A stretch of DNA of 64,000 nt from an uncultured Dehalococcoidia bacterium (GTDB lineage Bacteria; Chloroflexota; Dehalococcoidia; Lucifugimonadales; JADFKI01). Below the pieces are notes generated by a model. It ran no database searches, was not told the origin of the DNA, and saw only the letters and a list, made by a program, of their open reading frames with translations. Positions within the stretch are counted from its first letter, which is position 1; each line of letters begins with the position of its first letter. This document shows, piece by piece, positions 14,416 to 32,109 of the stretch. The DNA lies in NCBI GenBank assembly GCA_964632415.1, contig CAZWDM010000002.1, positions 3,039-67,038 of the forward strand, in the 5' to 3' direction. The position numbers and the translations under genes are program-made.

Positions 14416-14422
14416 CTGGCAC

Positions 14423-16810: not shown

Positions 16811-16827
16811 CGAAAAGGAGAATTAAA

Positions 16828-21290: not shown

Positions 21291-21752
21291 CTAGAACAGC
21301 CTCGGCGCCTGTTGTTCCTCCTGCGCTGTCACCTGCTGACGCTGGTTGCGGCGCCGGGCCGGCGGAGCGGGCCGCTCGTAGGCGGGATGCTTCGGCGTCT
21401 CCTCCCACCTCGCCTTCGCTCTGTCGGCCACCGCCGCGACTGCCTGCGCCAGCTCAGCCAATTCCGCGTCGTCGAAGGCCTCGATGTGCGGGTCCGACGA
21501 GGGCTGTTGCACTCCGACGGTGGCCCTTCTCCCATTGATCGAGACGACGACCTTCAGTTCTTCCGCTGCGTCGGTCTGGGTCTCGTCGCCAGCAGTTTCA
21601 GGGGCATCGTCCGAGCCCTGGGAGGCTTTCGCCGTCTCCTCTTCCAGTCCCTGCTCCTCGACGACCGTTGCGTCCGGGCGGGTTGTTGCCGTTCCGTTTT
21701 CGTCCGGCATCGATCTTCTCCTTTCGTTGGTCTTACCTTCGGCTGCGTCCAC
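21291..21752 (-). CDS. Hypothetical acidic protein on the element backbone
   Basis: 153-aa ORF starting 12 nt after the DUF2958 gene. The N-terminal half is acidic and low-complexity. No motif recognised. Confidence 0.45.
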   Translation of the reverse strand: MDAAEGKTNERRRSMPDENGTATTRPDATVVEEQGLEEETAKASQGSDDAPETAGDETQTDAAEELKVVVSINGRRATVGVQQPSSDPHIEAFDDAELAELAQAVAAVADRAKARWEETPKHPAYERPAPPARRRNQRQQVTAQEEQQAPRLF

Positions 21753-21764: not shown

Positions 21765-22151
21765 CTAGGCCGCCAATCTCGACGACTCTCTCGTGATTTC
21801 GCCGATGGTCTTCGGCTCCCAGTAGAGGTCGCGCTCGATGGCGGGGACGCCGCCGAACACCGTCGTCTGCGCGAGCTCCTCGAGCCCGAAGTAGCCCCAC
21901 TCCGTGTCGAAACCCTCGACTAGCCCGAAGCAGAGGCCGGTCTCGGCCTCCCATTCCGTGACGTACCAGGTCCAGCTGCTGAAGGGGCTGAACAGCTTCA
22001 CGTTCGCAATGACGCTCTCGCCGTCCTCGACGTTCTGCGTGGCGCCGAGGGCGGGAATCTTCTTCCCGATCTCCTCTGTCACCAGTTCGTGCCCGCGCAA
22101 CCCGCTGAGGTTGTCGTGCCATGTGGTCGTGGTTTTCTTTTCGTCTGCCAT
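21765..22151 (-). CDS. DUF2958-like protein (common on ICEs and plasmids)
   Basis: VKLFSPFSSWTWYVTEWEAETGLCFGLVEGFDTEWGYFGLEELAQ...IERDLYWEP matches my memory of the DUF2958 signature. Confidence 0.65.
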   Translation of the reverse strand: MADEKKTTTTWHDNLSGLRGHELVTEEIGKKIPALGATQNVEDGESVIANVKLFSPFSSWTWYVTEWEAETGLCFGLVEGFDTEWGYFGLEELAQTTVFGGVPAIERDLYWEPKTIGEITRESSRLAA

Positions 22152-22230
22152 GGTTTCTCCTTTTTCGTTTCTCGTACGTTGGGGTCACGCGCGCCCTTCT
22201 AAGGGGCGTCGGCGCCCCGCCGCGCGCCGG

Positions 22231-23052
22231 CTACGCCCGGTTTTCCGGGTTTGCGTCCGCCCCGACCAGCCGCTCCACGGCTTCGGGAGTGACGTATGTC
22301 GGGTTGATCGTGCCCCGGTCCATGTCCAGGTAGAGGCTCATGAACGGGCAGGTTCCGGCAACCATGCGGCGCACCACCTGCAGGACCAGCGATGCCATCA
22401 TCTGGTTGATGGTCGGGTCCTGGTCGACGAGGTCGAGCGCCGCCGCGCAGTCCACGTCCGGCGGCCTGGCCGACACGGCGGTCAGCAGGTCGGGCCGTTG
22501 CAGCGTGGGCGCGGGAGCCAGGTGGCAGGTCTCCCCGGTGAAGGGAGTTTCCTCCAGGAACAGCCTCTCGGCGACGTTGCCGATCAGGACCTGCCCCCAG
22601 TTGTCGTCGTTGCCCGCGTCGATCAGCCAGCGTCGCGGGTCGCCCGGCAGACACTCGGCCATCGCCCTGCGCGCGGCGGCGTTGTCGACGCAGCCGATCA
22701 CGAGGCTGTCGCGGCACGCGGGCAGGCCGGGGTAGCCGTGCCCGTGGGGCCGGAAGTCCCGGTCGTACTCCCGGAAGGGGTAGACCGAGTAGCCGACCGG
22801 ACGCCCGAAGGTTTTCGCGAGCCGGTCGGCCAGGGCCTTGCTCTTGAACTGTCCGACGTCTTCCGGATGGAAGTTCTGGCGCAGCAGGTTGTGCGGCTCC
22901 ACCCGGTCGTGGTCGACCAGGACTATCGTGGCCTGCCTGCCCTGGAAGAGTCTGCAGAGACCCTCGGCGACGAATCCTCCGGTGCCGCCGCAGCCGACCA
23001 CCGTGATCCAGGGATCGTCCAGCAGGAACGCGTTGTCCAGGTGGTAGGGCAT
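22231..23052 (-). CDS. ThiF-family E1-like adenylating enzyme (PRTRC ThiF type)
   Basis: ITVVGCGGTGGFVAEGLCRL (GxGxxG) and VLVDHDRVEPHNLLRQNF. AAGGAGG lies upstream of the ATG. Confidence 0.85.
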   Translation of the reverse strand: MPYHLDNAFLLDDPWITVVGCGGTGGFVAEGLCRLFQGRQATIVLVDHDRVEPHNLLRQNFHPEDVGQFKSKALADRLAKTFGRPVGYSVYPFREYDRDFRPHGHGYPGLPACRDSLVIGCVDNAAARRAMAECLPGDPRRWLIDAGNDDNWGQVLIGNVAERLFLEETPFTGETCHLAPAPTLQRPDLLTAVSARPPDVDCAAALDLVDQDPTINQMMASLVLQVVRRMVAGTCPFMSLYLDMDRGTINPTYVTPEAVERLVGADANPENRA

Positions 23053-23058
23053 TCTTGT

Positions 23059-23802
23059 TCACCTCCTTGTTCCTGGTTGTCTGTCTCGTGCCGTATCCGG
23101 CTTTTCGGCGATCAGCCGGACGCCCGGCGGCGGCCCGTCGAACACCTGCGTCCACTTTGCCGGGGCGAAGTGTCCGTAGACGCCGACCCGGAGGCTCAGT
23201 TCCGGCTCGGGGGCGTCGAGGTGTCCGGCGACGCCGTAGATGCGGAACCCCTGCTCGTCCTCGTCGTCGGTCTTCGAGAAGAAGGCGGGGAAGGTTCCGT
23301 GCGAGTGGAACTCGGCCACCGCTCCGGCGAGCGGCTCGTACTCGAGGGACGAAGCCGTCCCTTGCTGCAGGGGCACCGCCGGGCGGTAGGCGTTCCCGTC
23401 CCAGCGCACGGCGAAGAACCGCTCGGTGCGCGGATCGTCCATGAACCAGCGCAGGCCCGCCTCGAACAGGCGCGCCGGGATCGGGCCGTGGACGAGTTCC
23501 ACCTTTTCCTCGACGGGAGCGAGTCCCCGCACCTCGCACCGGGCGACCAGCACCCGCGCGGCGAGGTGCGCGCTCTCGGACTGGACGTGCAGGCCGCCCG
23601 ATCCGAGCACGTAGTCGTATCCGATCCCTTGATCACCGGAGAGTCCGGTCGGGTGGTTGACGAGGTGCCCCACCGGTCTTTGCCGGCGATCGGCGGCGGC
23701 ATCGTCACCAGCGGCGGCCCGGTCTCCCTTCCGACACCGCGATCGCATGGGCCACGGTGCACTGGGGGACGAGGTCCTCTGTCGGGTACTCTTTCTTTCC
23801 AT
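23059..23802 (-). CDS. JAB/MPN (JAMM) metallopeptidase (PRTRC protein A type)
   Basis: EFHSHGTFPAFFSKTDDED is an exact HxHx7Sx2D JAMM motif. The true start is probably internal (for example GTG 23673), because the upstream gene ends at 23705. Confidence 0.8.
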   Translation of the reverse strand: MERKSTRQRTSSPSAPWPMRSRCRKGDRAAAGDDAAADRRQRPVGHLVNHPTGLSGDQGIGYDYVLGSGGLHVQSESAHLAARVLVARCEVRGLAPVEEKVELVHGPIPARLFEAGLRWFMDDPRTERFFAVRWDGNAYRPAVPLQQGTASSLEYEPLAGAVAEFHSHGTFPAFFSKTDDEDEQGFRIYGVAGHLDAPEPELSLRVGVYGHFAPAKWTQVFDGPPPGVRLIAEKPDTARDRQPGTRR

Positions 23803-24412
23803 CTATCTCCTCCCATAGCGCCAGAAGGTCGTCGGGATGCTTCTGCGAGCGGTTCTTCGAATCTCCCGTGAGGGAGAAGAAGGACCGGAAGAACGACTCG
23901 GGGATCTCCCTCGCGTCGTCGGGGAACTTGTGGCTTCCCGGGCAGACCCGTCCGTCGCCGAAGACGTTGAAGGCGGGCATGCGGTAGAGCGTCTGCTCAG
24001 GGTCGACGGGCCTCCTCTGCGCGGCGTAGACCCGCGGCGCACGGCCCGGCGAGCAGACGAAGACCAGCCCCGGCATCGGGAGGCGGAGCCGCGCGGGCGG
24101 CTCGAACGCCTCCCGCTGCAGGGCGACGGGCCAGACCTGAGGGGCTCGCCAAAGGCCGACTGTCATCCCGGTCTCGCCCTGCCCCCACCAGACGGTGTTC
24201 TCCGGGAGCAGCCCGGAGGAGAAGCCGATGTGCCGGGTGAACACGTTGGCGATCTCGTCGGCGGAGACGGTCCTGACCCAGTCGGCCTCGCGCTCGAAGC
24301 CGCGCAGCAGGATCGTCTCCCCGTAGACTTCCAGCTGCGCCTTCAAGACGTCTCTGGGCGCGTCCGACGCGCCCGGCAGGGACCACTCGGTCCTTTCGGC
24401 GTCACTGTCCAT
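23705..24412 (-). CDS. E2/UBC-like protein (PRTRC protein B type)
   Basis: 235 aa. LYRMPAFNVFGDGRVCPGSHKFP resembles the E2 HPN...C active-site stretch. It overlaps both neighbours. Confidence 0.6.
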   Translation of the reverse strand: MDSDAERTEWSLPGASDAPRDVLKAQLEVYGETILLRGFEREADWVRTVSADEIANVFTRHIGFSSGLLPENTVWWGQGETGMTVGLWRAPQVWPVALQREAFEPPARLRLPMPGLVFVCSPGRAPRVYAAQRRPVDPEQTLYRMPAFNVFGDGRVCPGSHKFPDDAREIPESFFRSFFSLTGDSKNRSQKHPDDLLALWEEIDGKKEYPTEDLVPQCTVAHAIAVSEGRPGRRW

Positions 24413-25262
24413 GGTCGTCGTCCTCTTGTTCGTGTTCGTGTCCGTGTTCGTTTGCGGGCAGCCGGGGCAGGACGAAGTCCAGCACTTCGGCGAAGCGTCC
24501 GGGCAGGTCCTCCTCCAGCCAGTCGGCCATCCGGCCCACCGAGTCCATCTGGGCGCTCGCCCTGCGCCACTCCGCAGCGCCCTCGGCGATGACGTCGTCC
24601 TCCCAAGGGTCGGAAAAGCCTTCGTACCACCCGTCGTCGTAGCTGTGGTCGAGGAAGAAGTTCCCGGTCTCGGCGAATACCCAGGAGCAGGCCATCGCGG
24701 CCCCCTCGAACCGGGTCCCTTCGACCGCGTTCTTCAAGTCGTCGATGGGCGCGCCGTCCCGAGGGATCCTAAGCAGCGTCTCCCGCGGTATGCGCTCCGC
24801 GGCCGACTCCAGCCAGGCCGTGCGGATCTCGTCCGCGCCGCACAAGAGGGCTTCGTGGGGCTTGACCAGCAGGGCGAGCGCCGAGATCCCGTCGCGGCAG
24901 CAGTCCCACAGCTCGTGGAGGGCGTCGTATCCGAATCCCATGAGGTCGAAGGGGATGCCCCGCCTGAGCCATGTCCACGGAGGTTCGTCCGGATCGGAAT
25001 CGATCCAGTACTCCATGAAGGGCGCGTGGAGCGGGAAGTGGCGCTCCGCGAAGAGTTCGGCGAACCGCGCCACCCTCGTGCGCACGGCGGGGGCCGACAG
25101 CACTTCCTCCGATTCTTCGGGAAAGAGGCGGCGCACCAGCCCGGCGAACCATGCGTAGTCGTCGGCGTGTCCGACGATGACGACCAGCTCCCGCAGCGAC
25201 GGCGGACGCTGCAGGAGTTTCTCGCCGAGGCCGCTCAGGAGCGGCGGCCGCGCAGCTTCCAT
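24402..25262 (-). CDS. Helical protein of the Ubl cassette, unknown function (possibly PRTRC protein F type)
   Basis: 286-aa acidic Trp-rich ORF (WTWLRRGIPFDLMGFGYDALHELWDCC) with a His/Asp/Glu-rich tail. It overlaps the genes on both sides. Confidence 0.5.
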   Translation of the reverse strand: MEAARPPLLSGLGEKLLQRPPSLRELVVIVGHADDYAWFAGLVRRLFPEESEEVLSAPAVRTRVARFAELFAERHFPLHAPFMEYWIDSDPDEPPWTWLRRGIPFDLMGFGYDALHELWDCCRDGISALALLVKPHEALLCGADEIRTAWLESAAERIPRETLLRIPRDGAPIDDLKNAVEGTRFEGAAMACSWVFAETGNFFLDHSYDDGWYEGFSDPWEDDVIAEGAAEWRRASAQMDSVGRMADWLEEDLPGRFAEVLDFVLPRLPANEHGHEHEQEDDDHGQ

Positions 25263-25465
25263 CGCATCGCCTCCAGAAGTCTCGCCGTGCCCGAGGCGTG
25301 GTCCTGCGCCTGGACGCAGGCGGCCTCCACCTCCGGCTGCCGTGCGGCCGCGGCGTCCAGGTCGATGGTGCCGTCGGGCCGTTCGAGCTCCGCCGCGAGC
25401 TCGATTATGCGCAGGTTTACCGGCGGCACGGCCGCCAGCAGTTCCGCGAGTTGGTTGCTGTCCAT
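25235..25465 (-). CDS. Small acidic protein of the Ubl cassette
   Basis: 76-aa ORF between the Ubl gene and the 286-aa gene, overlapping the latter by 28 nt. No motif recognised. Confidence 0.4.
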   Translation of the reverse strand: MDSNQLAELLAAVPPVNLRIIELAAELERPDGTIDLDAAAARQPEVEAACVQAQDHASGTARLLEAMRWKLRGRRS

Positions 25466-25479
25466 CGCTTCGCCCTCCT

Positions 25480-25686
25480 CTAGTTCGGGACGCGGGTCGG
25501 GGCGCCCTTGGTGCCCACCCTGCGCTCGAACTCGTAGATGGTGTCGAAGCCTCTTATCGTCTCCTTGACCGAGGCGTTGGCGATCTCGCCGTAGAAGTCG
25601 GCCAGCGTGGCCTTAACCTGGTCGACGCTCATCTCGGGGTCGGGGTCCGGGAACTCCCGGTCGTCGTACACGAAGATCCTTGCCAT
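25480..25686 (-). CDS. Ubiquitin-like beta-grasp protein candidate (PRTRC protein C type)
   Basis: 68 aa. MARIFVYDDREFPDPDPEMSVDQVKATLADFYGEIANASVKE...YEFERRVGTKGAPTRVPN. Size, position and the DPdP...GTKG pattern fit my memory of the PRTRC-C family. Confidence 0.6.
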   Translation of the reverse strand: MARIFVYDDREFPDPDPEMSVDQVKATLADFYGEIANASVKETIRGFDTIYEFERRVGTKGAPTRVPN

Positions 25687-25781: not shown

Positions 25782-28118
25782 CTAGCGTCCCGCGCCGACC
25801 AGCTCCCTTTCCTGCTCCATCGCCCACTCGAACATCGAGAGGCTGGCGGGTCGGGGCTTGCGGTTCCGGCGCTTCGGCTCGACAGGCTCCGCCATGAACT
25901 CGGCCCATGAGAACAGCGACCGCTGCTCCTCGTCGACCCCGTCGTGGCTGCCGTCGCCGTCCGGGCGTGTGCCCCCGTCGGTCGGGACTGCCTCCACCGC
26001 CGGTTCGGCGATGAATGGAACGTGGCTACCGTCGGGGCGGTGGCCGTTTCCGCCGACCGGCGCGGTTTCCGGCTCGATTTCGACGGCCTTCCAATCGGCG
26101 TCCACGAGCAGCTCCTCGGCCTCGTCTTCGGCGTCCCTGGCCTTGGCGAAGACCTCTTCGATGGTCTCCGCGCCGTCCTCCTCGCCGTCGACGATCCGCT
26201 TGGCCAGCGCCATCATCAGGTCGTCGCCGTCGTCGCCGAAAGCCGCGAGGCCCTCCTTGGGGAGCTCCCCCTCGACGGCGAGCGAGCTCTGGAGCTTCTG
26301 CGCCACCAGCTTCAGGGCGTCGGCCTGCAGCGTGTTCCGGTAGGCCATGAAGACCACCTTCACCGGCCGCGTCTGCCCGATCCGCCACGAGCGTCTCGAG
26401 GCCTGCCGCATGACGTAGACCGAGTAGTCGGTCTCGTACCAGCAGATCGTCGGGAAGTCGATCAGGTCGAGCCCCGTCTGCACCAGCCTGGGGTGGCAGA
26501 TCAGGACGTCGATCCCCTGCTCCACCTTCTCGGCGACCCATTTCTCCCTGCGGTCCGGAGCGACGGCCCCGGCCTTCATCACCGCGGCGCGGAAGCCGTG
26601 CCGCTCGAGCATCTCCCGCATCCGGACGGTGATGTCGCGGGTGCCGGTGTGCGTGGCGTAGACCAGCACGCGCCGTCCCGCCATGCGTTCGGCGGCGACG
26701 AGGTCGACCAGCGCCTTCTCCTTCGGGTAGAGCCGATCCTCCGAGAGCGGCGGGACCTGCACCAGAACGTCCCCGGTGTCGGGGTCGAACGCCGTCTCGC
26801 CCCTGGTGCATCCGTCGGGGTAAGCCAGCAGGGTCTGCAGGTAGGTGGCGAGCAGCCTCTTGGAGCCCGACTGCAGAGCCTTTTTCAGCGCCTTCCTCAG
26901 CTCCTCGAACACGTGGCCGTAGGCGCTGCGCTGCGAGAAGCCCGTGGCGTCCTCCCGCGCGTCCATCGAGGACAGCAGGATCTGCTCGTCGTAGGCTGGC
27001 AGCCCCGACGCGACGTCCGAGAGGCGCAGGAACACCGTGTTCCCGATGATGTGGAAGAGCGCCGAGGGCACCAGCCCCGGCCGCTCCCTCACCACCTTCC
27101 GGTAGCTCCGGCGCCGGCTGACCCGCCCGTCCTCGAGGGCCTCGTCGTCGGGCTTGCCTATCGAGTGCTCCTCGAAGCCGTAGCGCTGCACCCAGCGGCG
27201 CTCGTCCGAGCGTGCGAACTCGTCCCTGATCTCCGGGCTGAACCTGTAGAGGAGGTGGAACAGCGTCGAGCTGTACCCTCCCATCAGCGTGCCGGAGAGG
27301 CTGAGCGACTTTCCGCAGGCGTCGGCGAGGACGCCCGCGGCGACTCCCTGCGCCGATCCCCGGCCCTTGTACTCGTGCACCTCGTCGCCGATCAGCAGGT
27401 CGAAGAAGCCCTTCATCCTGTGCTTGACGTACTCGGCCAGCGGATAGCGCCTGGGACCCGAGTTGTCGGCCTGCCACAGGCCGGAGCCGCATCTCGCGCA
27501 GACGCGTCTGCGCCGTTTGAGCTCTTTCAGGGTCAGGGGAACTCCGTCCTTGTCCACGACCTGGGCGGAGCAGGTCGGGCAGGTCGGCAGGCGCACCGGT
27601 TCGCCGGTGTCCTCGTCGCGCACGAGCCGCCCGTTCGCCACGGCCCATCGGTCGACGACCGCGGGCTTCCAGCGGTACGAGAGCTTGGCGCGCTCGCGCG
27701 ACATCACCGCGAAGAGGGGACCGACGCCGGTCGAGAGGCGGAGCCGCTCGAGGTCGGTGATCGACTTGACGACCGACGCGCGTGCGAACGGAACCGTCTC
27801 CTCGACCTCCCTCTTCCACTTGTTGACGAGGTGCGGCGGGCAGAGCACCAGCACGCGTCCGAAACCCGCCGCGTGGGCCGCGGCTGCGGCGATGAAGGTC
27901 TTGCCGGTGCCCATCTCGCCGACCACGGTGGTGCCTCGCCTCGCCTCGAGCGAGAGAGCCGCTCCGCGGATCGCGTCCGCCTGCGCCCCCAGGGGCGTCC
28001 TGAGCAACCGCGGAAGCCCGCGGCCGTTCTCGGAGGGACGGTAGAGCGGCGGGTACGATTCCACGACCCGCCGCGCTATCGCGTCCCTGTAGGTGTCGAT
28101 GAACTCTCCGAGGTCCAT
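25782..28118 (-). CDS. SNF2/DEAD-like helicase with an inserted zinc ribbon
   Basis: VVGEMGTGKTF (motif I), LIGDEVHEYKG (motif II), RASRRSWRIGQTRPV (motif VI). CPTCSAQ...CARCGS lies between motifs I and II. Confidence 0.9.
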   Translation of the reverse strand: MDLGEFIDTYRDAIARRVVESYPPLYRPSENGRGLPRLLRTPLGAQADAIRGAALSLEARRGTTVVGEMGTGKTFIAAAAAHAAGFGRVLVLCPPHLVNKWKREVEETVPFARASVVKSITDLERLRLSTGVGPLFAVMSRERAKLSYRWKPAVVDRWAVANGRLVRDEDTGEPVRLPTCPTCSAQVVDKDGVPLTLKELKRRRRVCARCGSGLWQADNSGPRRYPLAEYVKHRMKGFFDLLIGDEVHEYKGRGSAQGVAAGVLADACGKSLSLSGTLMGGYSSTLFHLLYRFSPEIRDEFARSDERRWVQRYGFEEHSIGKPDDEALEDGRVSRRRSYRKVVRERPGLVPSALFHIIGNTVFLRLSDVASGLPAYDEQILLSSMDAREDATGFSQRSAYGHVFEELRKALKKALQSGSKRLLATYLQTLLAYPDGCTRGETAFDPDTGDVLVQVPPLSEDRLYPKEKALVDLVAAERMAGRRVLVYATHTGTRDITVRMREMLERHGFRAAVMKAGAVAPDRREKWVAEKVEQGIDVLICHPRLVQTGLDLIDFPTICWYETDYSVYVMRQASRRSWRIGQTRPVKVVFMAYRNTLQADALKLVAQKLQSSLAVEGELPKEGLAAFGDDGDDLMMALAKRIVDGEEDGAETIEEVFAKARDAEDEAEELLVDADWKAVEIEPETAPVGGNGHRPDGSHVPFIAEPAVEAVPTDGGTRPDGDGSHDGVDEEQRSLFSWAEFMAEPVEPKRRNRKPRPASLSMFEWAMEQERELVGAGR

Positions 28119-28139
28119 CTCGTCCTCCTTTCCCGGCCC

Positions 28140-29180
28140 TCAGGCCGCTATGTCCTCGATCGCGCCGCTCCCCAGGTCGAGCGCGACCACCGTCGTGGTG
28201 AGCTGCTCGCGGTAGACCTCCTTCTCGGGCCGGTCCTCGGCGAGGGTCATCTGCTTGGACGTGCGCCCCTTCACCAGGACGCGTCGATCGTCCGACGCGA
28301 GCACCAGGTTGTCGAGGAACCCGGCGGCGACCAGCATCGCCATGTGGCCCCTCCGGAGCGGCATCAGCGGACGTTCCCGCCTGTCCTCGGCGGGCCAGAG
28401 CGAGTCGGTGACGTCCGGGTTCGTCCAGAGCCCCGAGCGGCGCGCCTCGGACGCCGCCGCGGCCGGATCGACCGTGCGGGTCGCGAACAGCACGTCTCCC
28501 GCCGGAGCCGCCGGGGCCCGGAACTCCGGGTACCGCGCCGGGGCGAGAGTCTCCGGTTCGCCCGACGACCATTCGAGCACCTGCCGCTCGGCTCCCGCGT
28601 CGGCGAACGGCTCCGGCTTTCGCCGGGCGATCAGCACGACCTGGTCGAACACCTCGCGCTCCGGGTCGGGGAACGACCGGCAGGTCATCCGCCAGTAGTG
28701 CGACGAGAGGTAGCGCGCCGACACCGCGAGGCGCCGCCTCGGCACCACGAACACGAGCAGCCCGCCGTCCGAGAGGTATCGCGTGCACTGCGTCAGGAAG
28801 GCGTGCTCGACCCTCCGCTTGTCGTCCGAGTCCCAGTCGTACGGCGGGTTCAGGTAGCAGAGCCCGAAGGCCCCGTTCGCCATCGAGACCCTGAAGAGGT
28901 CCGAGGCCAGGACGTGGTCGAGGCGGCGCTCGGCCTCCTCCGCCCTCTCGCCGTGCAGCTCGACGCCGTAGGTCTCGACCGGGATACGCGAGGTTTCCTG
29001 GAGCCGCTCGGCGAGCCGCTCCGCCGCCAGACCCTCGCCGCAGCAGGGGTCCAGCAGCCGGAGCGTGCCGGTTCCGCGCCGGCCGGGGCCGGCGTCCGCG
29101 CGGATCAGGTCCGCGATCATCTCCACCACCCGCACAGGGGCGGGGTAGTATCCTCCTTTGGCCTGCGCGGCAAGCCTCAT
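28140..29180 (-). CDS. N6-adenine-type DNA methyltransferase (NPPY)
   Basis: LDPCCGEGLAAERL (SAM motif I) and CYLNPPYDWD (motif IV). ATG 29180 is preceded by AAAGGAGA. The track start at 29300 looks too long. Confidence 0.8.
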   Translation of the reverse strand: MRLAAQAKGGYYPAPVRVVEMIADLIRADAGPGRRGTGTLRLLDPCCGEGLAAERLAERLQETSRIPVETYGVELHGERAEEAERRLDHVLASDLFRVSMANGAFGLCYLNPPYDWDSDDKRRVEHAFLTQCTRYLSDGGLLVFVVPRRRLAVSARYLSSHYWRMTCRSFPDPEREVFDQVVLIARRKPEPFADAGAERQVLEWSSGEPETLAPARYPEFRAPAAPAGDVLFATRTVDPAAAASEARRSGLWTNPDVTDSLWPAEDRRERPLMPLRRGHMAMLVAAGFLDNLVLASDDRRVLVKGRTSKQMTLAEDRPEKEVYREQLTTTVVALDLGSGAIEDIAA

Positions 29181-29286
29181 GGCGGGTCTCCTTTCTTCTC
29201 GCCGTCGTCGTTCGTCGCGGGAGCGCCGCCCCCGCCGACAGCTTCGGGGGCGCGTCGGCGCGGAGGTCCCACGAGGGACTTCCGCG

Positions 29287-29919
29287 TCACCTCTCCTCAC
29301 CGCCTCCGTCGGGAAGCGTCAGCCTCCCCGACGCCACCGCGTGCGACAGGTCGTCTCGGAGCCTGTCCGCGTTCGGCGCGCACCTGTAGGCGGAGAGGCC
29401 CTCCGATTCCAGCGGCGTGATCTCGCCGTTCGCCAGCCCCCGGTCCCACAGCCATCCCGACCACGACCCGTGGAGCGGCAGCGGGCAGCGCCGGTCGAGG
29501 AACCGACGGTGCAGCGCGGGTGCGTCGTCCCCTTCCCGGGCCAGCAGCAGGAACGAGTCCCGCTCGAAGCCCAGCTCCGCGGTCTTCGTGTAGACCAGCG
29601 CGTGCCATCCGCCCGACATGGGCAGCTTGGCGATCCTGGTCGTCCACGTCCCGACCGTCTCGTGCGGCACCGCGCATCTGCGGTAGCCGCCCGAAAGCGC
29701 CTCGCCGTCGGCGCCTCTGATCACGTGCGCCTCGTCTGGCGGCTGCTTGAGCAGCGAAGCCCAGATCGCCTTCAGCGCCGTCTGCGACCCCACCATCGAG
29801 AGGAACCACAGCGTGTCGTCCCTCGCGTCCCTTGCGAACGCGTCCGCGGTCGCCGAGAATCCCCCGGCCGTCACCGTCCACAGCTCGTCGGCGCGTGCGA
29901 CGTTTTCCGTCTCGCCCAT
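29287..29919 (-). CDS. Hypothetical protein on the element backbone
   Basis: 210 aa from ATG 29919, which follows AAGGAGG. The longer track ORF (to 30249) overlaps ssb and has an Arg/Gly-rich artefactual N-terminus. Confidence 0.5.
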   Translation of the reverse strand: MGETENVARADELWTVTAGGFSATADAFARDARDDTLWFLSMVGSQTALKAIWASLLKQPPDEAHVIRGADGEALSGGYRRCAVPHETVGTWTTRIAKLPMSGGWHALVYTKTAELGFERDSFLLLAREGDDAPALHRRFLDRRCPLPLHGSWSGWLWDRGLANGEITPLESEGLSAYRCAPNADRLRDDLSHAVASGRLTLPDGGGEER

Positions 29920-30017: not shown

Positions 30018-30407
30018 CTAGAACGGGGACGCCGCATCGTAAGCAGCGTGGCCGCGGCCATGGCCGTTGCCGTGTCCGTTGCCGTTCCTCGAGTCGAGGA
30101 ACACCACCTCCGAGGCGTGCACCTCCGCCTTGTGCCTGACCTGGCCGTCGGAGCCCTCCCAGGTGCTGTATCCCAGTCGGCCCGAGACGTAGACCCGGTC
30201 GCCCTTTCCCAGGTACCTGCCCACGGCCTCGGCCTGGCCGGCCCAGCACACCACCGTGTGCCAGTCCGTCTCGGGCTCGCCGTCCCTCACCCGGCGTTCC
30301 GTCGCCAGCCGCAGGTTCGCGACCGACGTTCCGCCGTTGGTCGTCCTCACGTCCGGGTCCGCGCCCAGGCGGCCCAGAAGCTCGATCTTGTTGACTGTCC
30401 TCGACAT
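30018..30407 (-). CDS. ssb: Single-stranded DNA-binding protein
   Basis: MSRTVNKIELLGRLGADPDVR...WHTVVCWAGQAEAVGRYLGKGDRVYVSGRL is an OB fold. The tail is Gly/His/Asn-rich and ends in PF. ATG 30407 follows GAAGGAGAA. Confidence 0.85.
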   Translation of the reverse strand: MSRTVNKIELLGRLGADPDVRTTNGGTSVANLRLATERRVRDGEPETDWHTVVCWAGQAEAVGRYLGKGDRVYVSGRLGYSTWEGSDGQVRHKAEVHASEVVFLDSRNGNGHGNGHGRGHAAYDAASPF

Positions 30408-30537
30408 CGCGTTCTCCTTCTGTCGTGGATGCGGCGCGGCGTTAGAGCCGCGCCTTGGTTGTTCGTCGCGGGGCTCCACCCTCTCAGGGATGTCCCCGCT
30501 CGAGCACCCCCGTCCGGGGGCGACCGGCGGATCCCGT

Positions 30538-31647
30538 CTAGGTCACGCGCACGTGTTCGGAGACGGTCTCCGAGACGATGCGGCTCCGTGCGTCCGGATC
30601 CAGCATCTCGTTGAGCCTCCGGTGGTCGACCGAGAACCTCCTCGTCGACACCAGGCTCACCTTGCGCCCGTCGAGCGTCGCCTTGCGGTCCCCGCGTCCG
30701 CGCATCCACGCCTTGAGCGTGTCCAGGGCGGACCGGCGGGCGCCGTCCGGCTTCTTCAGGGCGCTCCGCGCTCCGTCGTACGACGCGATGGCCTCGCGGG
30801 CGTCGGCGTCCGTGACGGGGCGTCGACCTTCGTCGTCGTCGTCCGCCCCCGTCGAAGCCTCGCCGGGCAGGCAGGCCGTCAGCCATGGGCAGCGGCGGCA
30901 CCGCCAGTCGCCCCCGCCGAAGTCGCGGTCCGGTGGAGCATCCGGGTCCGGCCCGTTGAGGGCCAGATGCCTTCCCAGCTCCGCCACCCGCTCGCAGGCG
31001 TCCCGAAAGGCCCGCGCGACTCGGTTGGCGGGGATCACCTCGTAGTCCCAGCGGCGGGACCCGGTGTCCATGGTCGCGATCACCGCGTCGCGCGCCTCGC
31101 CGTACGTCCCGTAGGTGTAGAAGGCCGCCTGCGCGACCGATTCGGGGTGGCTGCGCTCCGCCCCGAGCGTCTTCCATCTCCGGAAGGCGTCTGGGCCGCG
31201 GGTCTTGACCTCGACGATCGTCTCGCCGCCGAGGCGGCGGATCTCCGGCGCGTCGCCGAACAGGAGCCGCCCCACCCGCGTCGCCTCCGCGGAGGCGGTA
31301 TCGGGCGTAAGCGGCATGCGTCCTGTGGCGTCTGGATGGCCGACCACCCGGACGTTAGTCGCGGCCTCGACGGTGACCTCCTTCGGCGCCGCCGGATCGG
31401 CGGGAGAGACCTCCCAGCCCGCGCGCTCCATCGCGCGCATCACCACCGGCTCGAGCGCCGCGCCCGACTCCATGACGGTGAGCGCCGCGTCGTCAGCCGG
31501 ATCCGTTTCTTCGCGTCCGGTGGCCGAGTACCACAGCGCCCTGCGGCAGCCCGCGGCGGCCGACGCCCGGACCTCGAGACCCCCGTCCCCGGTCAGCGCC
31601 GCCGACGGTCTGGAGTAGACTTCGGGGCGCTCCTGCGTCGCGTTCAT
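30538..31647 (-). CDS. PD-(D/E)xK exonuclease with a Cas4/AddB-like Cys cluster
   Basis: VVGHPDATG...IVEVKTRG is a D...ExK motif. The N-terminal Cys (AAGCRRALWY) plus the C-terminal CRRCPWLTAC (CX2CX5C) resembles the 4Fe-4S signature. ATG 31647 overlaps the upstream stop (ATGA). Confidence 0.7.
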   Translation of the reverse strand: MNATQERPEVYSRPSAALTGDGGLEVRASAAAGCRRALWYSATGREETDPADDAALTVMESGAALEPVVMRAMERAGWEVSPADPAAPKEVTVEAATNVRVVGHPDATGRMPLTPDTASAEATRVGRLLFGDAPEIRRLGGETIVEVKTRGPDAFRRWKTLGAERSHPESVAQAAFYTYGTYGEARDAVIATMDTGSRRWDYEVIPANRVARAFRDACERVAELGRHLALNGPDPDAPPDRDFGGGDWRCRRCPWLTACLPGEASTGADDDDEGRRPVTDADAREAIASYDGARSALKKPDGARRSALDTLKAWMRGRGDRKATLDGRKVSLVSTRRFSVDHRRLNEMLDPDARSRIVSETVSEHVRVT

Positions 31648-32060
31648 CGCTTCGAGTCTCCTTTCTCCTGGTCTTCGCAGTCTTCGCTCCCGCCGGCCTC
31701 CGCGGCCTCGACGCAGCTCCGAAGCACGTGGGCGATCCCGTCGCCCAGGCCGTGCACCATCACCGCGCCCGCGCCGCCGATCCGGTTCGGGAACGGCTGC
31801 ATCTCCGAGATGCCCTGGCACTCGGAGACGATTTCCCGCGCTGGCGCCCCGCTCCGGAGCGCCAGCGTCGCCAGCCGGCAGGCGAGCTCGGCCACGCCGT
31901 GCTCGAAGCTGCCGGCCTTCCCCATCCTCCCGAACACCTCGACCGGGGAACCGCTCCGGTCCTTGGAGACCGTCACGATTAGCTCCCCGCGCTCGGTGTT
32001 GAGCCGCGTCGTGACGCCCTCGAGGACGTCGGGGCGACGCGGCGGCGCGTTCGTCGGCAT
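31644..32060 (-). CDS. TSCPD-domain-like small protein
   Basis: GELIVTVSKDRSGSPVEVFGRMGKAGSFEHGVAELACRLATLALRSGAPAREIVSECQGIS resembles the domain at the C-terminus of class II ribonucleotide reductases. Confidence 0.5.
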   Translation of the reverse strand: MPTNAPPRRPDVLEGVTTRLNTERGELIVTVSKDRSGSPVEVFGRMGKAGSFEHGVAELACRLATLALRSGAPAREIVSECQGISEMQPFPNRIGGAGAVMVHGLGDGIAHVLRSCVEAAEAGGSEDCEDQEKGDSKR

Positions 32061-32109
32061 TCGTCCGCCTCCTTTCCGTCGCTGCCGGTCGCGTCGCGGC
32101 GGCGACTGA

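What the first reader, a model, noticed from the sequence alone, without database searches (positions are those of the whole stretch)
21765..25686. Complete ubiquitin-like conjugation cassette (Ubl, E2-like, JAB, E1) on a conjugative-element backbone
Seen: six tightly packed or overlapping minus-strand genes. They are a 68-aa beta-grasp-sized protein, a 76-aa acidic protein and a 286-aa helical protein. Then come a 235-aa protein with an E2-like MPAFNVFGDGRVCPGS stretch and a JAB peptidase with an exact HxHx7Sx2D motif. Last is a ThiF E1 with GCGGTGG and DHDRVEPHNLLRQ motifs, followed by a DUF2958 gene. Established: this gene set corresponds to the PRTRC (ParB-related, ThiF-related) cassette of TIGRFAMs. 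It also corresponds to the mobile-element Ub-like operons predicted by Iyer, Burroughs and Aravind (2006). As far as I recall, Bil antiphage systems have the same Ubl-E2-JAB-E1 order. Inference: this is a full conjugation and deconjugation pathway whose substrate is unknown. Here it lacks the ParB and PRTRC-D partners and is flanked by an SNF2 helicase, a methyltransferase and recombination genes. To my knowledge the PRTRC type has not been characterised experimentally. It could modify incoming-DNA-associated or phage proteins, or element-encoded transfer proteins.
Basis: partly seen in the sequence, partly recalled or inferred. Interest (0 to 1): 0.75.

Follow-up and report, generated by a model that had tools for sequence, protein, structure and literature searches.

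The report
Ubiquitin-like tagging operon on conjugative element
A mobile DNA element integrated in a Dehalococcoidia chromosome carries a compact, well conserved operon for a small ubiquitin-like protein and its activating (E1), conjugating (E2-like) and cleaving (JAB) enzymes. The operon type was predicted in 2006 and no experimental study of it turned up in the paper library searched.

Summary
Six packed minus-strand genes (22231-25686) encode a Prok_Ub protein, a 76-aa protein, a 286-aa helical protein, a Prok-E2_D protein, a JAB peptidase and a ThiF-type E1. A DUF2958 gene and a 139-aa gene follow. The order is identical in 15 of 15 related Dehalococcoidia chromosomal loci, with dN/dS below 1 for every gene.

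It fits operon type "6d" of Iyer, Burroughs and Aravind (2006). It is related to TIGRFAM PRTRC, but all four PRTRC matches fall below their cut-offs, and no ParB, D, E or F partner was found. It is not Bil, Bub or CBASS.

New here:
- The Ubl always ends RRVGTKG plus a variable 3-11-aa tail. In 25 cyanobacterial plasmids it is fused in frame to a 76-aa-like moiety, so it is made as a precursor that must be cut.
- The E2 keeps an Asn-x7-Cys core spaced as in eukaryotic E2s.
- The cassette lies in the high-GC backbone with primase, Rad52, SSB, methyltransferase and helicase genes, not in the low-GC defence cargo.

The target and role remain unknown. Both structure predictions failed, so folds were not tested. 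Verdict: real, a divergent member of a known but uncharacterised kind, moderately interesting.

The parts
25480..25686 (-). Ubiquitin-like protein precursor, 68 aa. The conserved body is residues 1-61 and ends ...RRVGTKG. Residues 62-68 (APTRVPN) form a variable tail.
   Evidence: Pfam Prok_Ub at 53.2 bits. PRTRC_C at 44.1 bits, against a cut-off of 45.95. The RRVGTKG ending is invariant in 15 of 15 loci, followed by 3-11 unconserved residues. dN/dS is 0.06-0.19. P15, G58, K60 and G61 are invariant across phyla.
25504..25506 (-). Codon of Gly61, the predicted mature C-terminus and processing site.
   Evidence: The PRTRC_C and Prok_Ub profiles end at residues 61 and 59 of this protein respectively. 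The canonical Ralstonia and Pseudomonas Ubls stop exactly at this KG. Conservation ends here in all 15 loci. Cyanobacterial fusions continue in frame past GTKG.
25235..25465 (-). 76-aa protein (p76), a conserved partner. It is probably the free-standing form of the moiety fused to the Ubl in cyanobacterial plasmids.
   Evidence: No Pfam, NCBIfam, PADLOC or PHROG match. Present in 15 of 15 loci at 62-83% identity. dN/dS is 0.38-0.75. hhalign against the cyanobacterial small-protein/extension family gives score 21.9 and E 1.1e-3, and 0 of 100 column shuffles reach that score. It sits in the same position as the 75-83-aa genes of Ralstonia, Pseudanabaena and Oscillatoria.
24402..25262 (-). 286-aa mostly helical protein (hel286), the 'novel alpha-helical protein' of operon type 6d. 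Its function is unknown; it could be an adaptor, an E3-like factor or an enzyme.
   Evidence: No Pfam or NCBIfam match, even for 60 diverse relatives. The family has 498 representatives at the 50% identity level. The family profile hits the gene just upstream of the E2 in Chlorohelix (9e-15), Nostoc (1.6e-11) and Pseudanabaena (4.9e-16). It does not hit the Ralstonia or Pseudomonas counterparts. The AlphaFold2 model has pLDDT 44.9 and shows 15 helices. dN/dS is 0.29-0.48.
23705..24412 (-). E2-like conjugating enzyme, 235 aa, with the predicted active-site core P146-x2-N149-x7-C157.
   Evidence: Pfam Prok-E2_D at 62.8 bits. PRTRC_B at 62.1 bits, against a cut-off of 131.45. P146, N149, C157 and G159 are invariant from Chloroflexota to Cyanobacteria and Proteobacteria. 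hhalign pairs N149 and C157 with N77 and C85 of UBE2D2, with probability 28% and E 6e-4. dN/dS is 0.16-0.32.
23059..23802 (-). JAB/JAMM metallopeptidase with an N-terminal extra domain. It is the predicted Ubl-processing and deconjugating enzyme. The start is uncertain: ATG at 23802 or GTG at 23673.
   Evidence: Pfam Prok-JAB at 26.6 bits. PRTRC_A at 52.1 bits, against a cut-off of 101.8. E127 and H166-x-H168 are invariant across phyla. S176 is conservatively replaced only in Nostoc, and D179 lies in a conserved acidic stretch. The ATG at 23802 with GGGAGGAG upstream is kept in 14 of 15 loci.
22231..23052 (-). Compact ThiF/MoeB/UBA5-like E1 adenylating enzyme, 273 aa, with a single adenylation domain.
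   Evidence: Pfam ThiF at 50.4 bits. PRTRC_ThiF at 102.2 bits, against a cut-off of 144.75. The best solved relative is UBA5, E 3e-5. Residues invariant in the cross-phylum alignment include the glycines of the G20-x-G-G-x-G nucleotide loop, N55, R58-Q59, D123 and Cys202; Cys176 is not invariant. There is no CxxC pair and no rhodanese domain. dN/dS is 0.12-0.23.
21765..22151 (-). DUF2958 protein, 128 aa, always directly downstream of the E1 in this clade.
   Evidence: Pfam DUF2958 at 37.1 bits. Present in 15 of 15 loci. dN/dS is 0.28-0.61. It was not found after the E1 in the Ralstonia, Nostoc, Pseudanabaena or Chlorohelix loci.
21291..21710 (-). 139-aa protein. It has an acidic low-complexity N-terminal half and a conserved C-terminal domain (LKVVVSI.G.RATIGVQQPSSDPHIE...WEE.PKHP...RRRN). 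It is the last gene of the conserved block.
   Evidence: Present in all loci. No family match. dN/dS is 0.24-0.34. Homology with the closest relative (L002) ends at window position 21136.
25782..29300 (-). Upstream neighbours: a DUF6094 methyltransferase (28140-29300) and a ResIII/Helicase_C helicase (25782-28118). They form a separate two-gene module.
   Evidence: Pfam matches. Conserved upstream of the Ubl in most of the 15 loci. The same pair occurs, without a Ubl cassette, on pKLC102 and on a Thermus plasmid.
30021..34855 (-). Rest of the co-directional backbone block: SSB (30021-30407), an unknown gene (30541-31647), TSCPD (31647-32060), Rad52-like (32110-32913) and a DnaG-like primase (33077-34855).
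   Evidence: Pfam matches. Mapping of the L001 genes onto the window. The block is 91% identical to L002 over 34441-21136.

Best explanation
This is a divergent member of the mobile-element ubiquitin-like conjugation operons called type "6d" by Iyer, Burroughs and Aravind (2006) and PRTRC-like in TIGRFAM terms. It is carried in the conserved backbone of an integrative conjugative element of a Dehalococcoidia bacterium.

Proposed mechanism. Only the motifs and their conservation are shown here; every biochemical step is inferred.
1. The Ubl is made as a precursor whose invariant ...GTKG is followed by a disposable tail.
2. The JAB metallopeptidase cuts after Gly61 and exposes the C-terminal glycine.
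3. The compact ThiF/UBA5-like E1, probably a homodimer, adenylates Gly61. It probably then holds the Ubl as a thioester on the family-invariant Cys202.
4. The Ubl passes to Cys157 of the E2-like protein. Asn149, eight residues upstream, sits where the oxyanion-hole Asn of the eukaryotic HPN motif sits.
5. The Ubl is transferred to lysines of target proteins. The 286-aa helical protein and the 76-aa protein, both always present, are the candidates for choosing or regulating targets.
6. The JAB enzyme can also reverse the modification.

Most likely role (inference from context): the system serves the element's own establishment, replication or maintenance in a host, possibly including protection against host defences. 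It is less likely to be a host anti-phage cargo system.
For: Identity:
- Four Pfam families pass their gathering scores.
- The best NCBIfam hits are the four PRTRC models.
- The gene set and order match row 6d of Iyer et al.. They also match the Ralstonia PRTRC order C, 75-aa protein, 315-aa protein, B, A, ThiF.

Evidence that the genes are functional:
- 15 of 15 loci are syntenic.
- dN/dS is 0.06-0.75.
- Every start has a Shine-Dalgarno sequence, and genes overlap in a way that suggests translational coupling.

Catalytic residues kept across three phyla:
- E2: P146, N149, C157 and G159.
- JAB: E127 and H166-x-H168; S176 and D179 are kept in most.
- E1: the nucleotide loop, N55, R58-Q59, D123 and Cys202.
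- The E2 Asn-x7-Cys spacing equals that of UBE2D2, and hhalign pairs the two motifs.

Precursor processing:
- The tail after GTKG is variable in length and sequence in 15 of 15 loci.
- Canonical PRTRC_C proteins end at KG.
- In 25 cyanobacterial plasmids the Ubl continues in frame into a moiety of about 78 aa. This moiety is a separate downstream gene in Oscillatoria, Planktothrix and Pseudanabaena.
- The window's p76 is weakly but colinearly similar to that moiety, and 0 of 100 shuffles reach the observed score.
- The one relative examined without a JAB gene, a Pseudomonas plasmid, has a tail-less Ubl.

Role:
- The cassette lies in the 68-73% GC block conserved with relatives. That block also holds primase, Rad52, TSCPD, SSB, methyltransferase and helicase genes.
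- The recognised defence systems sit in the variable 52-58% GC parts.
- PADLOC and PHROGs match only the Rossmann part of the E1.
- Relatives in other phyla sit beside ParB, RepA, SSB with CyRepA1, or a primase-polymerase on plasmids. Among the plasmids that match, 24 of 44 and 22 of 29 are typed conjugative.
- Orphan methyltransferases and SSBs are the gene classes reported as enriched in plasmid leading regions (PMC11541004).
Against: - No fold was verified. The AlphaFold2 models of the E2 (pLDDT 38.1) and of the helical protein (44.9) were unusable, and the Ubl was not modelled.
- Neither the Ubl nor the E2 has a detectable solved relative.
- The p76-to-fusion homology is weak, at 21% probability.
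- The His four residues after Cys157 is invariant only within the clade.
- No target, E3 or regulator is identified.
- The origin of transfer and the relaxase are not in the window, so 'leading region' cannot be tested.
- The element also carries CBASS, AbiE and Ssp, so a defence role by association cannot be excluded.
- The characterised sister families are linked to phage defence: CBASS (6b) and Bil (6c) were shown to act in anti-phage defence, and Bub (6e) is suspected to.
Confidence: 0.5

Rival explanations
1. The cassette is an anti-phage, or more broadly anti-invader, defence system carried as cargo. Like Bil, it would conjugate its Ubl to phage proteins, for example virion components, and block assembly or infectivity. 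The JAB enzyme would mature the Ubl and limit self-damage.
For: - Sister operon families from the same 2006 classification are defence or suspected defence systems. 6b is type II CBASS, 6c is Bil, and 6e is Bub, which sits in defence loci. NCBIfam now names a '6A-MBL anti-phage system'.
- The same element carries CBASS, AbiE and Ssp.
- The region just downstream of the cassette is a variable cargo site that holds CBASS here, and a Cap2-like gene in L004.
- Oscillatoria has a cGAS/DncV-like gene next to its cassette, and Chroococcidiopsis has an AbiEi gene nearby.
- Iyer et al. themselves proposed protection against invasive replicons as one option.
Against: - No PADLOC model matches the Ubl, E2, JAB, p76 or helical protein.
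- The cassette is part of the conserved high-GC backbone and is co-directional with replication and recombination genes in 15 of 15 loci. It does not lie in the variable low-GC islands.
- In other phyla it sits next to ParB, Rep, SSB or primase genes.
- None of the loci examined shows a CapW/BrxR or CapH/CapP-type regulator.
- The E1 is a minimal single domain, unlike BilD.
Confidence: 0.27
2. The cassette is an addiction or stability module. Opposing E1/E2 conjugation and JAB deconjugation would act on a host protein, so that loss of the element is harmful. This would be a toxin-antitoxin-like maintenance device.
For: - Iyer et al. 2006 suggested this.
- The cassette is always on plasmids or integrative conjugative elements and lies beside partition and replication genes.
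- The opposing activities are encoded together.
Against: - No evidence of toxicity exists.
- The system has six to eight genes, far more than needed for addiction.
- The element already carries AbiE, a toxin-antitoxin type system.
- Nothing in the sequences points to differential stability of the components.
Confidence: 0.1
3. The cassette is not a protein-conjugation system at all. The E1 would adenylate the small protein for sulfur transfer, as in ThiS/MoaD/CysO-type thiocarboxylate formation. Alternatively it would carry out a C-terminal peptide-nucleotide modification like MccB. The E2-like protein would be an inactive scaffold.
For: - The E1 is a compact ThiF/MoeB-like enzyme, and MccB is among its best solved matches.
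- JAB, ThiS-like and E1 trios do occur in sulfur pathways (Iyer 2006).
- The Ubl ends in a single Gly (KG), not GG.
Against: - The E2-like protein keeps an invariant Cys with an Asn at eukaryotic E2 spacing across three phyla, and it evolves under purifying selection.
- No rhodanese, sulfurtransferase or biosynthetic gene lies in the conserved block.
- The only sulfur genes, the Ssp system, are 20 kb away in unrelated low-GC cargo. They are absent from the stretches of the related loci that were fetched.
- The E1 has no CxxC zinc motif or rhodanese domain.
Confidence: 0.06

Closest known systems
Operon type 6d of Iyer, Burroughs and Aravind 2006 (Genome Biol 7:R60), especially the cyanobacterial plasmid versions such as pCC7120beta
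   Same: - The gene set is the same: small Ubl with a conserved C-terminal Gly, a rapidly diverging alpha-helical protein, an E2-like protein with a conserved Cys and no HPN His, a JAB with an N-terminal extra domain, and an E1-like protein.
- The order helical, E2, JAB, E1 is the same.
- The helical protein is detectably homologous to the cyanobacterial and Chlorohelix ones.
- These operons also sit on conjugative elements.
   Different: - The host phylum, Chloroflexota (Dehalococcoidia), is not in the 2006 list.
- Here the Ubl has a short tail and p76 is a separate gene. In many cyanobacteria the two are one 140-145-aa fusion.
- DUF2958 and the 139-aa gene are appended in this clade only.
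- Protein identity to the nearest plasmid relatives is only 26-35%.
TIGRFAM/NCBIfam PRTRC system (ParB-related, ThiF-related cassette) of proteobacterial plasmids and conjugative elements
   Same: - The best NCBIfam hits of the Ubl, E2, JAB and E1 are PRTRC_C, B, A and ThiF.
- The order is identical to Ralstonia pB1902: C, 75-aa protein, 315-aa protein, B, A, ThiF.
[quoted passage not shown]
   Different: - All four scores are below the curated cut-offs.
- There is no ParB and no PRTRC D, E or F.
- The helical protein belongs to a family that the profile does not connect to the Ralstonia or Pseudomonas counterparts.
- Canonical Ubls end at KG with no tail.
Bil (BilABCD, type 6c) anti-phage ubiquitination system
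   Same: The four components are the same, Ubl, E2, JAB and E1, in the same A-B-C-D order. A JAB enzyme is presumed to mature and remove the Ubl. No E3 is encoded.
   Different: - BilD is a multidomain E1 with inactive and active adenylation domains and a mobile Cys domain (IAD-AAD-CYS). Here the E1 is a single 273-aa domain.
- BilB is the CEHH-type E2. Here the E2 is Prok-E2_D.
- Bil has no p76 or helical partners.
- No defence-HMM match was found beyond the E1 Rossmann part.
- Bil's anti-phage role is shown experimentally. Nothing is shown for this cassette.
Eukaryotic ubiquitin precursors (ubiquitin-ribosomal protein fusions, polyubiquitin with an extra C-terminal residue) and the UBA5-UFC1 minimal E1/E2 pair
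   Same: - The Ubl is made with a C-terminal extension, or fused to another protein, and must be cut to expose Gly.
- The E2 has an Asn-x7-Cys core.
- The best solved E1 relative is UBA5. From my own knowledge, UBA5 is a compact homodimeric E1.
   Different: - There is no detectable sequence homology of the Ubl to ubiquitin.
- The mature end is KG, not GG.
- The processing enzyme is a JAB metalloprotease encoded in the same operon.
- The comparison with ubiquitin precursors rests on my own knowledge, not on a test made here.
Type II CBASS Cap2/Cap3 (type 6b) and Bub (type 6e)
   Same: These are bacterial E1/E2-type conjugation machineries on mobile DNA. A genuine type II CBASS lies 8 kb away in this same window.
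   Different: - Cap2 is an E1-E2 fusion that conjugates the cyclase itself, with no separate Ubl.
- Bub uses Ser/Tyr oxyester chemistry and a DUF6527 serine protease.
- Here E1 and E2 are separate proteins, the catalytic residues are Cys, and no DUF6527 protein is present.

Membership tests
Iyer-Burroughs-Aravind 2006 operon type 6d | [quoted passage not shown] | tested here: met
   Prok_Ub at 53.2 bits. G61 is invariant in 15 of 15 loci and in the Ralstonia, Pseudomonas and Pseudanabaena Ubls. Here it is followed by a 3-11-aa tail, so it becomes terminal only after processing.
Iyer-Burroughs-Aravind 2006 operon type 6d | A largely alpha-helical, rapidly diverging protein encoded in the operon | tested here: met
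   The 286-aa gene lies between the Ubl and the E2 in 15 of 15 loci. It is homologous to the equivalent gene in the Nostoc, Pseudanabaena and Chlorohelix operons. The helical content comes only from a low-confidence model. Conserved polar residues exist, for example H116, but most near-invariant positions are aromatic, Pro or Gly.
Iyer-Burroughs-Aravind 2006 operon type 6d | An E2-like protein with a conserved Cys, without the classical HPN His, and with a conserved His C-terminal to the Cys | tested here: inconclusive
   C157 is invariant across phyla, and P146-x2-N149 replaces HPN. H161 and H192 are invariant within the clade. In my alignment neither is invariant in the Ralstonia or Pseudomonas proteins, and the alignment there is uncertain.
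Iyer-Burroughs-Aravind 2006 operon type 6d | A JAB peptidase with an N-terminal alpha+beta domain carrying a conserved Arg and Trp | tested here: inconclusive
   The JAMM motif E127...H166xH168x7S176x2D179 is present. About 100 residues precede it, with R (VRGL) and W (RWF) conserved in the clade. These two residues are not invariant in the cross-phylum alignment.
Iyer-Burroughs-Aravind 2006 operon type 6d | An E1-like ThiF-family adenylating enzyme in the same operon | tested here: met
   Pfam ThiF at 50.4 bits. The nucleotide loop, N55, R58-Q59 and D123 are invariant.
NCBIfam/TIGRFAM PRTRC system | PRTRC_C, B, A and ThiF equivalog scores at or above their curated cut-offs | tested here: not met
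   The scores are 44.1 against 45.95, 62.1 against 131.45, 52.1 against 101.8, and 102.2 against 144.75 bits.
NCBIfam/TIGRFAM PRTRC system | An associated ParB-family protein and PRTRC proteins D, E and F | tested here: not met
   p76, hel286, DUF2958 and the 139-aa protein give no such hit, even at E up to 10 for p76 and the 139-aa protein, and for 60 hel286 relatives. No ParB domain appears among the genes of the conserved block. Not every small ORF of the window was scanned.
Bil (BilABCD) | A multidomain E1 (inactive adenylation domain, active adenylation domain, mobile Cys domain) | tested here: not met
   The E1 is 273 aa with one ThiF domain. The definition comes from PMC11601596.
Bil (BilABCD) | A demonstrated anti-phage function through Ubl conjugation to phage proteins | not testable with these tools
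   This needs phage challenge and proteomics. PADLOC gives no match except to the E1 Rossmann region.
Bub (type 6e) | A DUF6527 serine protease and Ser/Tyr oxyester chemistry | tested here: not met
   There is no DUF6527 hit. The E2 and E1 candidate catalytic residues are Cys.
Type II CBASS Cap2/Cap3 | An E1-E2 fusion next to a CD-NTase and an effector | tested here: not met
   In the cassette, E1 and E2 are separate genes with no cyclase. A true Cap2, cyclase and patatin set is at 11765-15337.
ThiS/MoaD-ThiF/MoeB sulfur-carrier systems | No E2; a rhodanese or sulfurtransferase and cofactor-biosynthesis genes in the neighbourhood; a GG C-terminus | tested here: not met
   An E2-like protein with an invariant Cys is present. 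There are no rhodanese or biosynthetic genes in the block. ThiF, MoeB and related equivalog scores are far below their cut-offs. The Ubl ends KG.
Ubiquitin-like beta-grasp fold / UBC fold (structural membership) | A beta-grasp fold for the 68-aa protein and a UBC-like fold for the 235-aa protein | tested here: inconclusive
   The E2 model has pLDDT 38.1 and is unusable. There are no solved relatives by sequence or profile. Support is indirect: Pfam family membership, the Asn-x7-Cys match to UBE2D2, and the secondary-structure and threading arguments of Iyer et al..

The most novel reading that the evidence does not exclude
A conjugative element uses its own ubiquitin-like conjugation system offensively or for its own management. 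The Ubl would be released from a precursor by the JAB enzyme and attached to recipient-cell defence proteins, or to the element's own DNA-processing proteins (SSB, Rad52, primase, helicase), during establishment after transfer. That would be the first bacterial ubiquitin-like system shown to work for a mobile element rather than for host immunity. The Ubl-p76 fusion and split would be a prokaryotic counterpart of eukaryotic ubiquitin-fusion precursors.
Probability: 0.25. Interest if true: 0.85.

Novelty: new member of a known kind. Interest (0 to 1): 0.5.

Why it matters
Of the E1/E2/JAB operon families catalogued in 2006, type 6b became type II CBASS, 6c became Bil and 6e became Bub. Each revealed unexpected chemistry or immune logic. 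I found no experimental study of type 6d (PRTRC-like), although it is widespread on plasmids and integrative conjugative elements.

This locus adds three things that make the family easier to attack:
- A clear processing prediction: cleavage after GTKG. It is supported by natural Ubl fusions in culturable cyanobacteria such as Nostoc PCC 7120.
- A short list of residues to mutate: E2 N149 and C157, E1 C202, and JAB H166 and H168.
- The observation that two further proteins, p76 and the helical protein, belong to the system.

If the role proves to be element establishment or anti-defence rather than host immunity, it would change how bacterial ubiquitin-like systems are viewed. It would also bear on how conjugative elements spread. 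If the role proves to be another defence system, it would still be a new branch with a minimal UBA5-like E1.

Tried and rejected
- **AlphaFold2 of the helical protein.** The 59-sequence alignment gave pLDDT 44.9. The alignment holds only 66-92% identical homologues and is too shallow. No fold search was run, because it would be meaningless.
- **AlphaFold2 of the E2.** The 61-sequence alignment gave pLDDT 38.1.
- **Searches against solved structures.** The Ubl, the E2 and a cross-phylum Ubl profile gave nothing significant.
- **Linking p76, the 139-aa protein and hel286 to PRTRC D, E or F.** No NCBIfam hits appeared even at loose thresholds. Local profiles did not hit the Ralstonia or Pseudomonas proteins. 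I had the impression that the 139-aa protein resembles PRTRC_E (a hairpin-like LKVVVSI.G..ATIGV stretch). This is unsupported and I dropped it.
- **Chlorohelix plasmid.** An IS21 element sits where the Ubl should be, so the locus is uninformative.
- **Homology between the large helicases.** The helicases beside the cassettes of Nostoc, Chlorohelix and the window show none. The recurring 'helicase nearby' is only a class-level association.
- **Programmed frameshift joining the Ubl and p76.** I rejected this. p76 is in another frame, and tail lengths vary from 3 to 11 aa among the loci, so no conserved shift site is possible.
- **Other scans.** The promoter scan found nothing in 20.5-36.5 kb, and the one minus-strand terminator-like site lies upstream of the block. 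No tRNA or Rfam feature was found in the window.
- **Literature.** Searches for PRTRC, DUF2958 and recent work on bacterial ubiquitination found no functional study. One preprint misreads PRTRC as 'Pilus Retraction/Contraction'.

Full report
**Observation**

The minus strand between 21291 and 25686 holds eight tightly packed genes. In order of transcription they are:
- a 68-aa protein (25480-25686);
- a 76-aa protein (25235-25465);
- a 286-aa protein (24402-25262);
- a 235-aa protein (23705-24412);
- a 247-aa protein (23059-23802);
- a 273-aa protein (22231-23052);
- a 128-aa protein (21765-22151);
- a last gene whose most likely start is 21710 (139 aa).

Pfam assigns five of them above the gathering score: Prok_Ub (53.2 bits), Prok-E2_D (62.8), Prok-JAB (26.6), ThiF (50.4) and DUF2958 (37.1). 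Gaps between the first six genes are 14, -28, -11, -98 and 6 nt. Each start is preceded by a GGAGG-like Shine-Dalgarno sequence.

**Host and conservation**

The closest relatives of the E2 gene in a species-level genome collection are 14 loci on chromosomes of Dehalococcoidia metagenome-assembled genomes, at 73-93% identity.
- The E2-like protein has 1154 homologues in the large protein collection, and the helical protein has 839.
- In all 15 loci fetched, the order Ubl, p76, hel286, E2, JAB, E1, DUF2958, 139-aa gene is identical. In most of them the DUF6094 methyltransferase and the helicase come first.
- Pairwise dN/dS against six relatives is below 1 for every gene: Ubl 0.06-0.19, E1 0.12-0.23, E2 0.16-0.32, hel286 0.29-0.48, JAB 0.37-0.57, p76 0.38-0.75, DUF2958 0.28-0.61, and the 139-aa gene 0.24-0.34.

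These are working genes, not a remnant.

**Which family**

NCBIfam's best hits are the PRTRC models, but all lie below the curated cut-offs:

| Model | Score (bits) | Cut-off (bits) |
|---|---|---|
| PRTRC_C | 44.1 | 45.95 |
| PRTRC_B | 62.1 | 131.45 |
| PRTRC_A | 52.1 | 101.8 |
| PRTRC_ThiF | 102.2 | 144.75 |

Nothing matches PRTRC D, E, F or the PRTRC ParB.

The operon matches row 6d of Table 1 of Iyer, Burroughs and Aravind 2006. That row lists a Ub-like protein, a JAB, an E1-like protein, an E2-like protein and a novel alpha-helical protein, with an E2 that lacks the classical His.

A canonical PRTRC locus on Ralstonia plasmid pB1902 reads ParB, E, C, a 75-aa gene, a 315-aa gene, B, A, ThiF. 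The order from the Ubl onward is the same as here, including a small gene and a roughly 300-aa gene between the Ubl and the E2.

The nearest plasmid relatives by sequence are cyanobacterial (Nostoc pCC7120beta and many others) and a Chlorohelix (Chloroflexota) plasmid, at 26-35% identity.
- A profile of the hel286 family (498 representatives at 50% identity, no Pfam or NCBIfam model) hits the gene just upstream of the E2 in Chlorohelix, Nostoc and Pseudanabaena, with E values of 1e-11 to 1e-16.
- It does not hit the Ralstonia or Pseudomonas counterparts.

The window therefore belongs to a non-TIGRFAM branch of type 6d, shared by Chloroflexota and Cyanobacteria.

**Catalytic equipment**

Positions that stay invariant in alignments spanning Dehalococcoidia, Chlorohelix, Nostoc, Ralstonia and Pseudomonas:
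- E2: P146, N149, C157 and G159.
- JAB: E127 and H166-x-H168. S176 and D179 are kept in most.
- E1: the G-x-G-G-x-G loop, N55, R58-Q59, D123, the D-x-G-N and G-Q-V motifs, and a single cysteine, C202. C176 is not conserved.

The E2 core P-x2-N149-x7-C157 has the same Asn-to-Cys spacing as HPN-x7-C of eukaryotic E2s. A local hhalign run pairs N149 and C157 with N77 and C85 of UBE2D2, at probability 28% and E 6e-4 for a one-to-one comparison.

The E1 has one adenylation domain, no CxxC pair and no rhodanese domain. Its best solved relative is UBA5, at E 3e-5.

All of this fits thioester chemistry running from E1 Cys202 to E2 Cys157. That remains an inference.

**The Ubl is made as a precursor**

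In all 15 Dehalococcoidia loci the Ubl is invariant up to ...RRVGTKG (Gly61). It then continues for 3-11 residues that vary in both length and sequence. The PRTRC_C profile ends at residue 61 and the Prok_Ub profile at residue 59. The Ralstonia and Pseudomonas Ubls stop exactly at KG.

In Nostoc PCC 7120 the Ubl (...KKAGTKG) continues in frame for a further 78 residues, giving a 140-aa protein.
- tblastn finds this fusion as one uninterrupted piece, covering at least 91% of it, in 25 cyanobacterial plasmids. Identities range from 100% down to 33%.
- In Oscillatoria (65 + 82 aa), Planktothrix and Pseudanabaena (70 + 83 aa) the same two parts are adjacent separate genes.
- The window's p76 sits in exactly that position. 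It aligns colinearly with the fused moiety (for example RQPEVEAACVQAQ against LQPQIEAAYTNGQ). hhalign gives score 21.9, E 1.1e-3 and probability 21%. None of 100 column-shuffled controls exceeded 16.2.

I read this as a Rosetta-stone link between the Ubl and p76. It also indicates that endoproteolytic cleavage after GTKG is an obligatory step, for which the co-encoded JAB enzyme is the obvious candidate. Consistent with that, the one relative examined without a JAB gene, a Pseudomonas plasmid, has a tail-less Ubl. The homology of p76 to the fused moiety is only moderately supported.

**Context in the window**

GC content is mosaic: 68-73% at 22-35 kb and 66-70% at 56-64 kb, but 52-60% elsewhere.

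The high-GC parts hold two sets of genes:
- One co-directional minus-strand block. It runs DnaG-like primase, Rad52-like, TSCPD, an unknown gene, SSB, an unknown gene, DUF6094 methyltransferase, helicase, the Ubl cassette, DUF2958 and the 139-aa gene.
- Type IV secretion genes: TrbL/VirB6, PrgI-like and VirB4/TraC-like.

The low-GC parts hold recognised defence systems with strong PADLOC scores: a type II CBASS (Cap2 at 535 bits, cyclase, patatin), AbiEi/AbiEii, and SspB/C/D with a cysteine desulfurase, a DndB-like gene and an SNF2 gene.

Homology with the closest relative runs from 34441 to 21136 and stops just past the 139-aa gene. The cassette is therefore the distal end of a conserved backbone block that abuts a variable cargo site.

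PADLOC and PHROGs recognise nothing in the cassette except the Rossmann part of the E1.

The methyltransferase-helicase pair is a module of its own. It also occurs on pKLC102 and on a Thermus plasmid without any Ubl genes.

**Context elsewhere**

- Related cassettes lie beside ParB (Ralstonia), replication initiator RepA (Deinococcus), SSB and CyRepA1 (Pseudanabaena), a primase-polymerase (Nostoc, Chroococcidiopsis), or siphovirus Gp157-family genes (Nostoc sp. UHCC 0926, Oscillatoria).
- Among the plasmids that match the E2, 24 of 44 are typed conjugative. Among those that match the Ubl fusion, 22 of 29 are.
- Orphan methyltransferases and SSBs are among the classes enriched in plasmid leading regions (PMC11541004). 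That paper mentions no ThiF or JAB genes.
- Some relatives do have defence genes nearby: a DncV-like gene in Oscillatoria and AbiEi in Chroococcidiopsis.

**Literature**

According to the Corbett-laboratory papers read here, 6b is type II CBASS, 6c is Bil and 6e is Bub. [quoted passage not shown] Searches for PRTRC, DUF2958 and recent work on bacterial ubiquitination found only genome-annotation mentions. [quoted passage not shown] Within this library, type 6d/PRTRC has no experimental characterisation.

**Mechanism and rivals**

The best-supported reading is a complete, reversible Ubl conjugation pathway: JAB processing of the precursor, E1 adenylation, a thioester on E2 Cys157, then transfer to target lysines. 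The pathway has two dedicated accessory proteins.

- I judge a role in the element's own establishment, replication or maintenance somewhat more likely (about 0.5 including the biochemistry) than a Bil-like anti-phage role (about 0.27). The reasons are the backbone position, the conserved linkage to replication and recombination genes, the neighbours in other phyla, and the lack of defence-model matches.
- The defence reading stays serious, because two characterised sister families are defence systems and a third is suspected to be, and because the element is rich in defence cargo.
- An addiction module (about 0.1) and a non-conjugating sulfur-transfer or peptide-modification system (about 0.06) are less likely. 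The latter is weakened by the invariant E2 Cys and Asn and by the absence of sulfur-transfer genes in the block.

**What could not be done**

The only homologues admissible for those alignments were 66-96% identical. The beta-grasp and UBC folds therefore remain supported only by family membership, by the active-site motif match and by the 2006 analysis. The origin of transfer, relaxase and integrase are outside the window, so the position relative to the leading region is unknown.

**Verdict**

This is a real, intact and strongly conserved Ubl, E2-like, JAB and E1 cassette. It is a divergent member of a kind that has been known from computation since 2006 but has not been characterised.
- The instance itself is not surprising to a specialist, and Dehalococcoidia are a poor experimental host.
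- The family is an open problem, and this analysis yields concrete, testable predictions: the precursor cleavage site, the Ubl-p76 fusion, and the residues to mutate.

Interest is 0.5.

Noticed in passing
window 11765-15337 (-): A complete-looking type II CBASS: a Cap2-like E1-E2 fusion (516 aa, PADLOC 535 bits), a CD-NTase (379 bits) and a patatin effector (269 bits). It is a second, unrelated E1/E2-type machinery in the same window. No Cap3-like JAB gene fits downstream, because the dnaE2-like gene ends at 11625.
   Followed up: partly
window 45086-55176: An Ssp-type DNA phosphorothioation system in a 52-55% GC island: SspB (DUF4007), SspC (1134 aa, 1248 bits) and SspD, with a divergently oriented cysteine desulfurase, plus a DndB-like gene and an SNF2 helicase.
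   Followed up: partly
window 15412-18457: An IrrE/M78 peptidase gene (15412-16095, -) and an AbiEi/AbiEii pair (16735-17424 and 17501-18457, +), in the variable region downstream of the cassette.
   Followed up: partly
window 5040-11625 (+): A mutasome-like cassette: an unknown 381-aa gene, an SRAP (YedK-like) peptidase, an ImuB-like Y-family polymerase and a DnaE2-like Pol III alpha. An SRAP gene also follows the canonical PRTRC cassette in Ralstonia pB1902 (L018 11595-12299). That may be coincidence.
   Followed up: no
window 57574-63429 (+): Type IV secretion genes in 66-70% GC DNA: TrbL/VirB6-like, a 584-aa protein with a PrgI-like N-terminus, and a VirB4/TraC-like ATPase. No relaxase, coupling protein or integrase was identified within the window.
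   Followed up: partly
window 23705-23802: The E2 and JAB genes overlap by 98 nt. The JAB ATG and its GGGAGGAG lie inside the conserved WEE(I/L)DG of the E2. The ATG is kept in 14 of 15 loci, although it needs a GAT Asp codon in a gene that uses GAC 13 times and GAT twice.
   Followed up: yes
window 25782-29300; L022 5424-8481; L023 5403-9202: The DUF6094 methyltransferase and helicase pair is a recurrent two-gene module on conjugative elements of distant phyla (pKLC102 of Pseudomonas, Thermus pTTJL1802). It is reminiscent of split DarB-like methyltransferase-helicase anti-restriction proteins. That comparison is from memory and was not tested.
   Followed up: partly
L017 7747-8169; L025 3501-3938; L026 3480-3917; L027 3486-3934: In many cyanobacterial plasmids the Ubl is fused in frame to the small downstream protein, giving 140-145 aa. 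In Oscillatoria, Planktothrix and Pseudanabaena the two are separate adjacent genes.
   Followed up: yes
window 1-64000; L004 16570-16757: GC content is strongly mosaic: 68-73% in the backbone and 52-60% in the cargo. The cargo site just past the 139-aa gene also holds a Cap2-like gene in relative L004, which suggests a recurrent insertion hot spot for defence genes.
   Followed up: partly
window 35724-36884 (+): A PLD-like (PLDc_2) nuclease or phospholipase-family gene lies at the edge between the high-GC backbone and the low-GC island.
   Followed up: no
L024 6031-8348: In the Chlorohelix plasmid an IS21 element (istA/istB) sits where the Ubl and small-protein genes would be expected, upstream of the helical protein gene. 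That copy may be disrupted.
   Followed up: no
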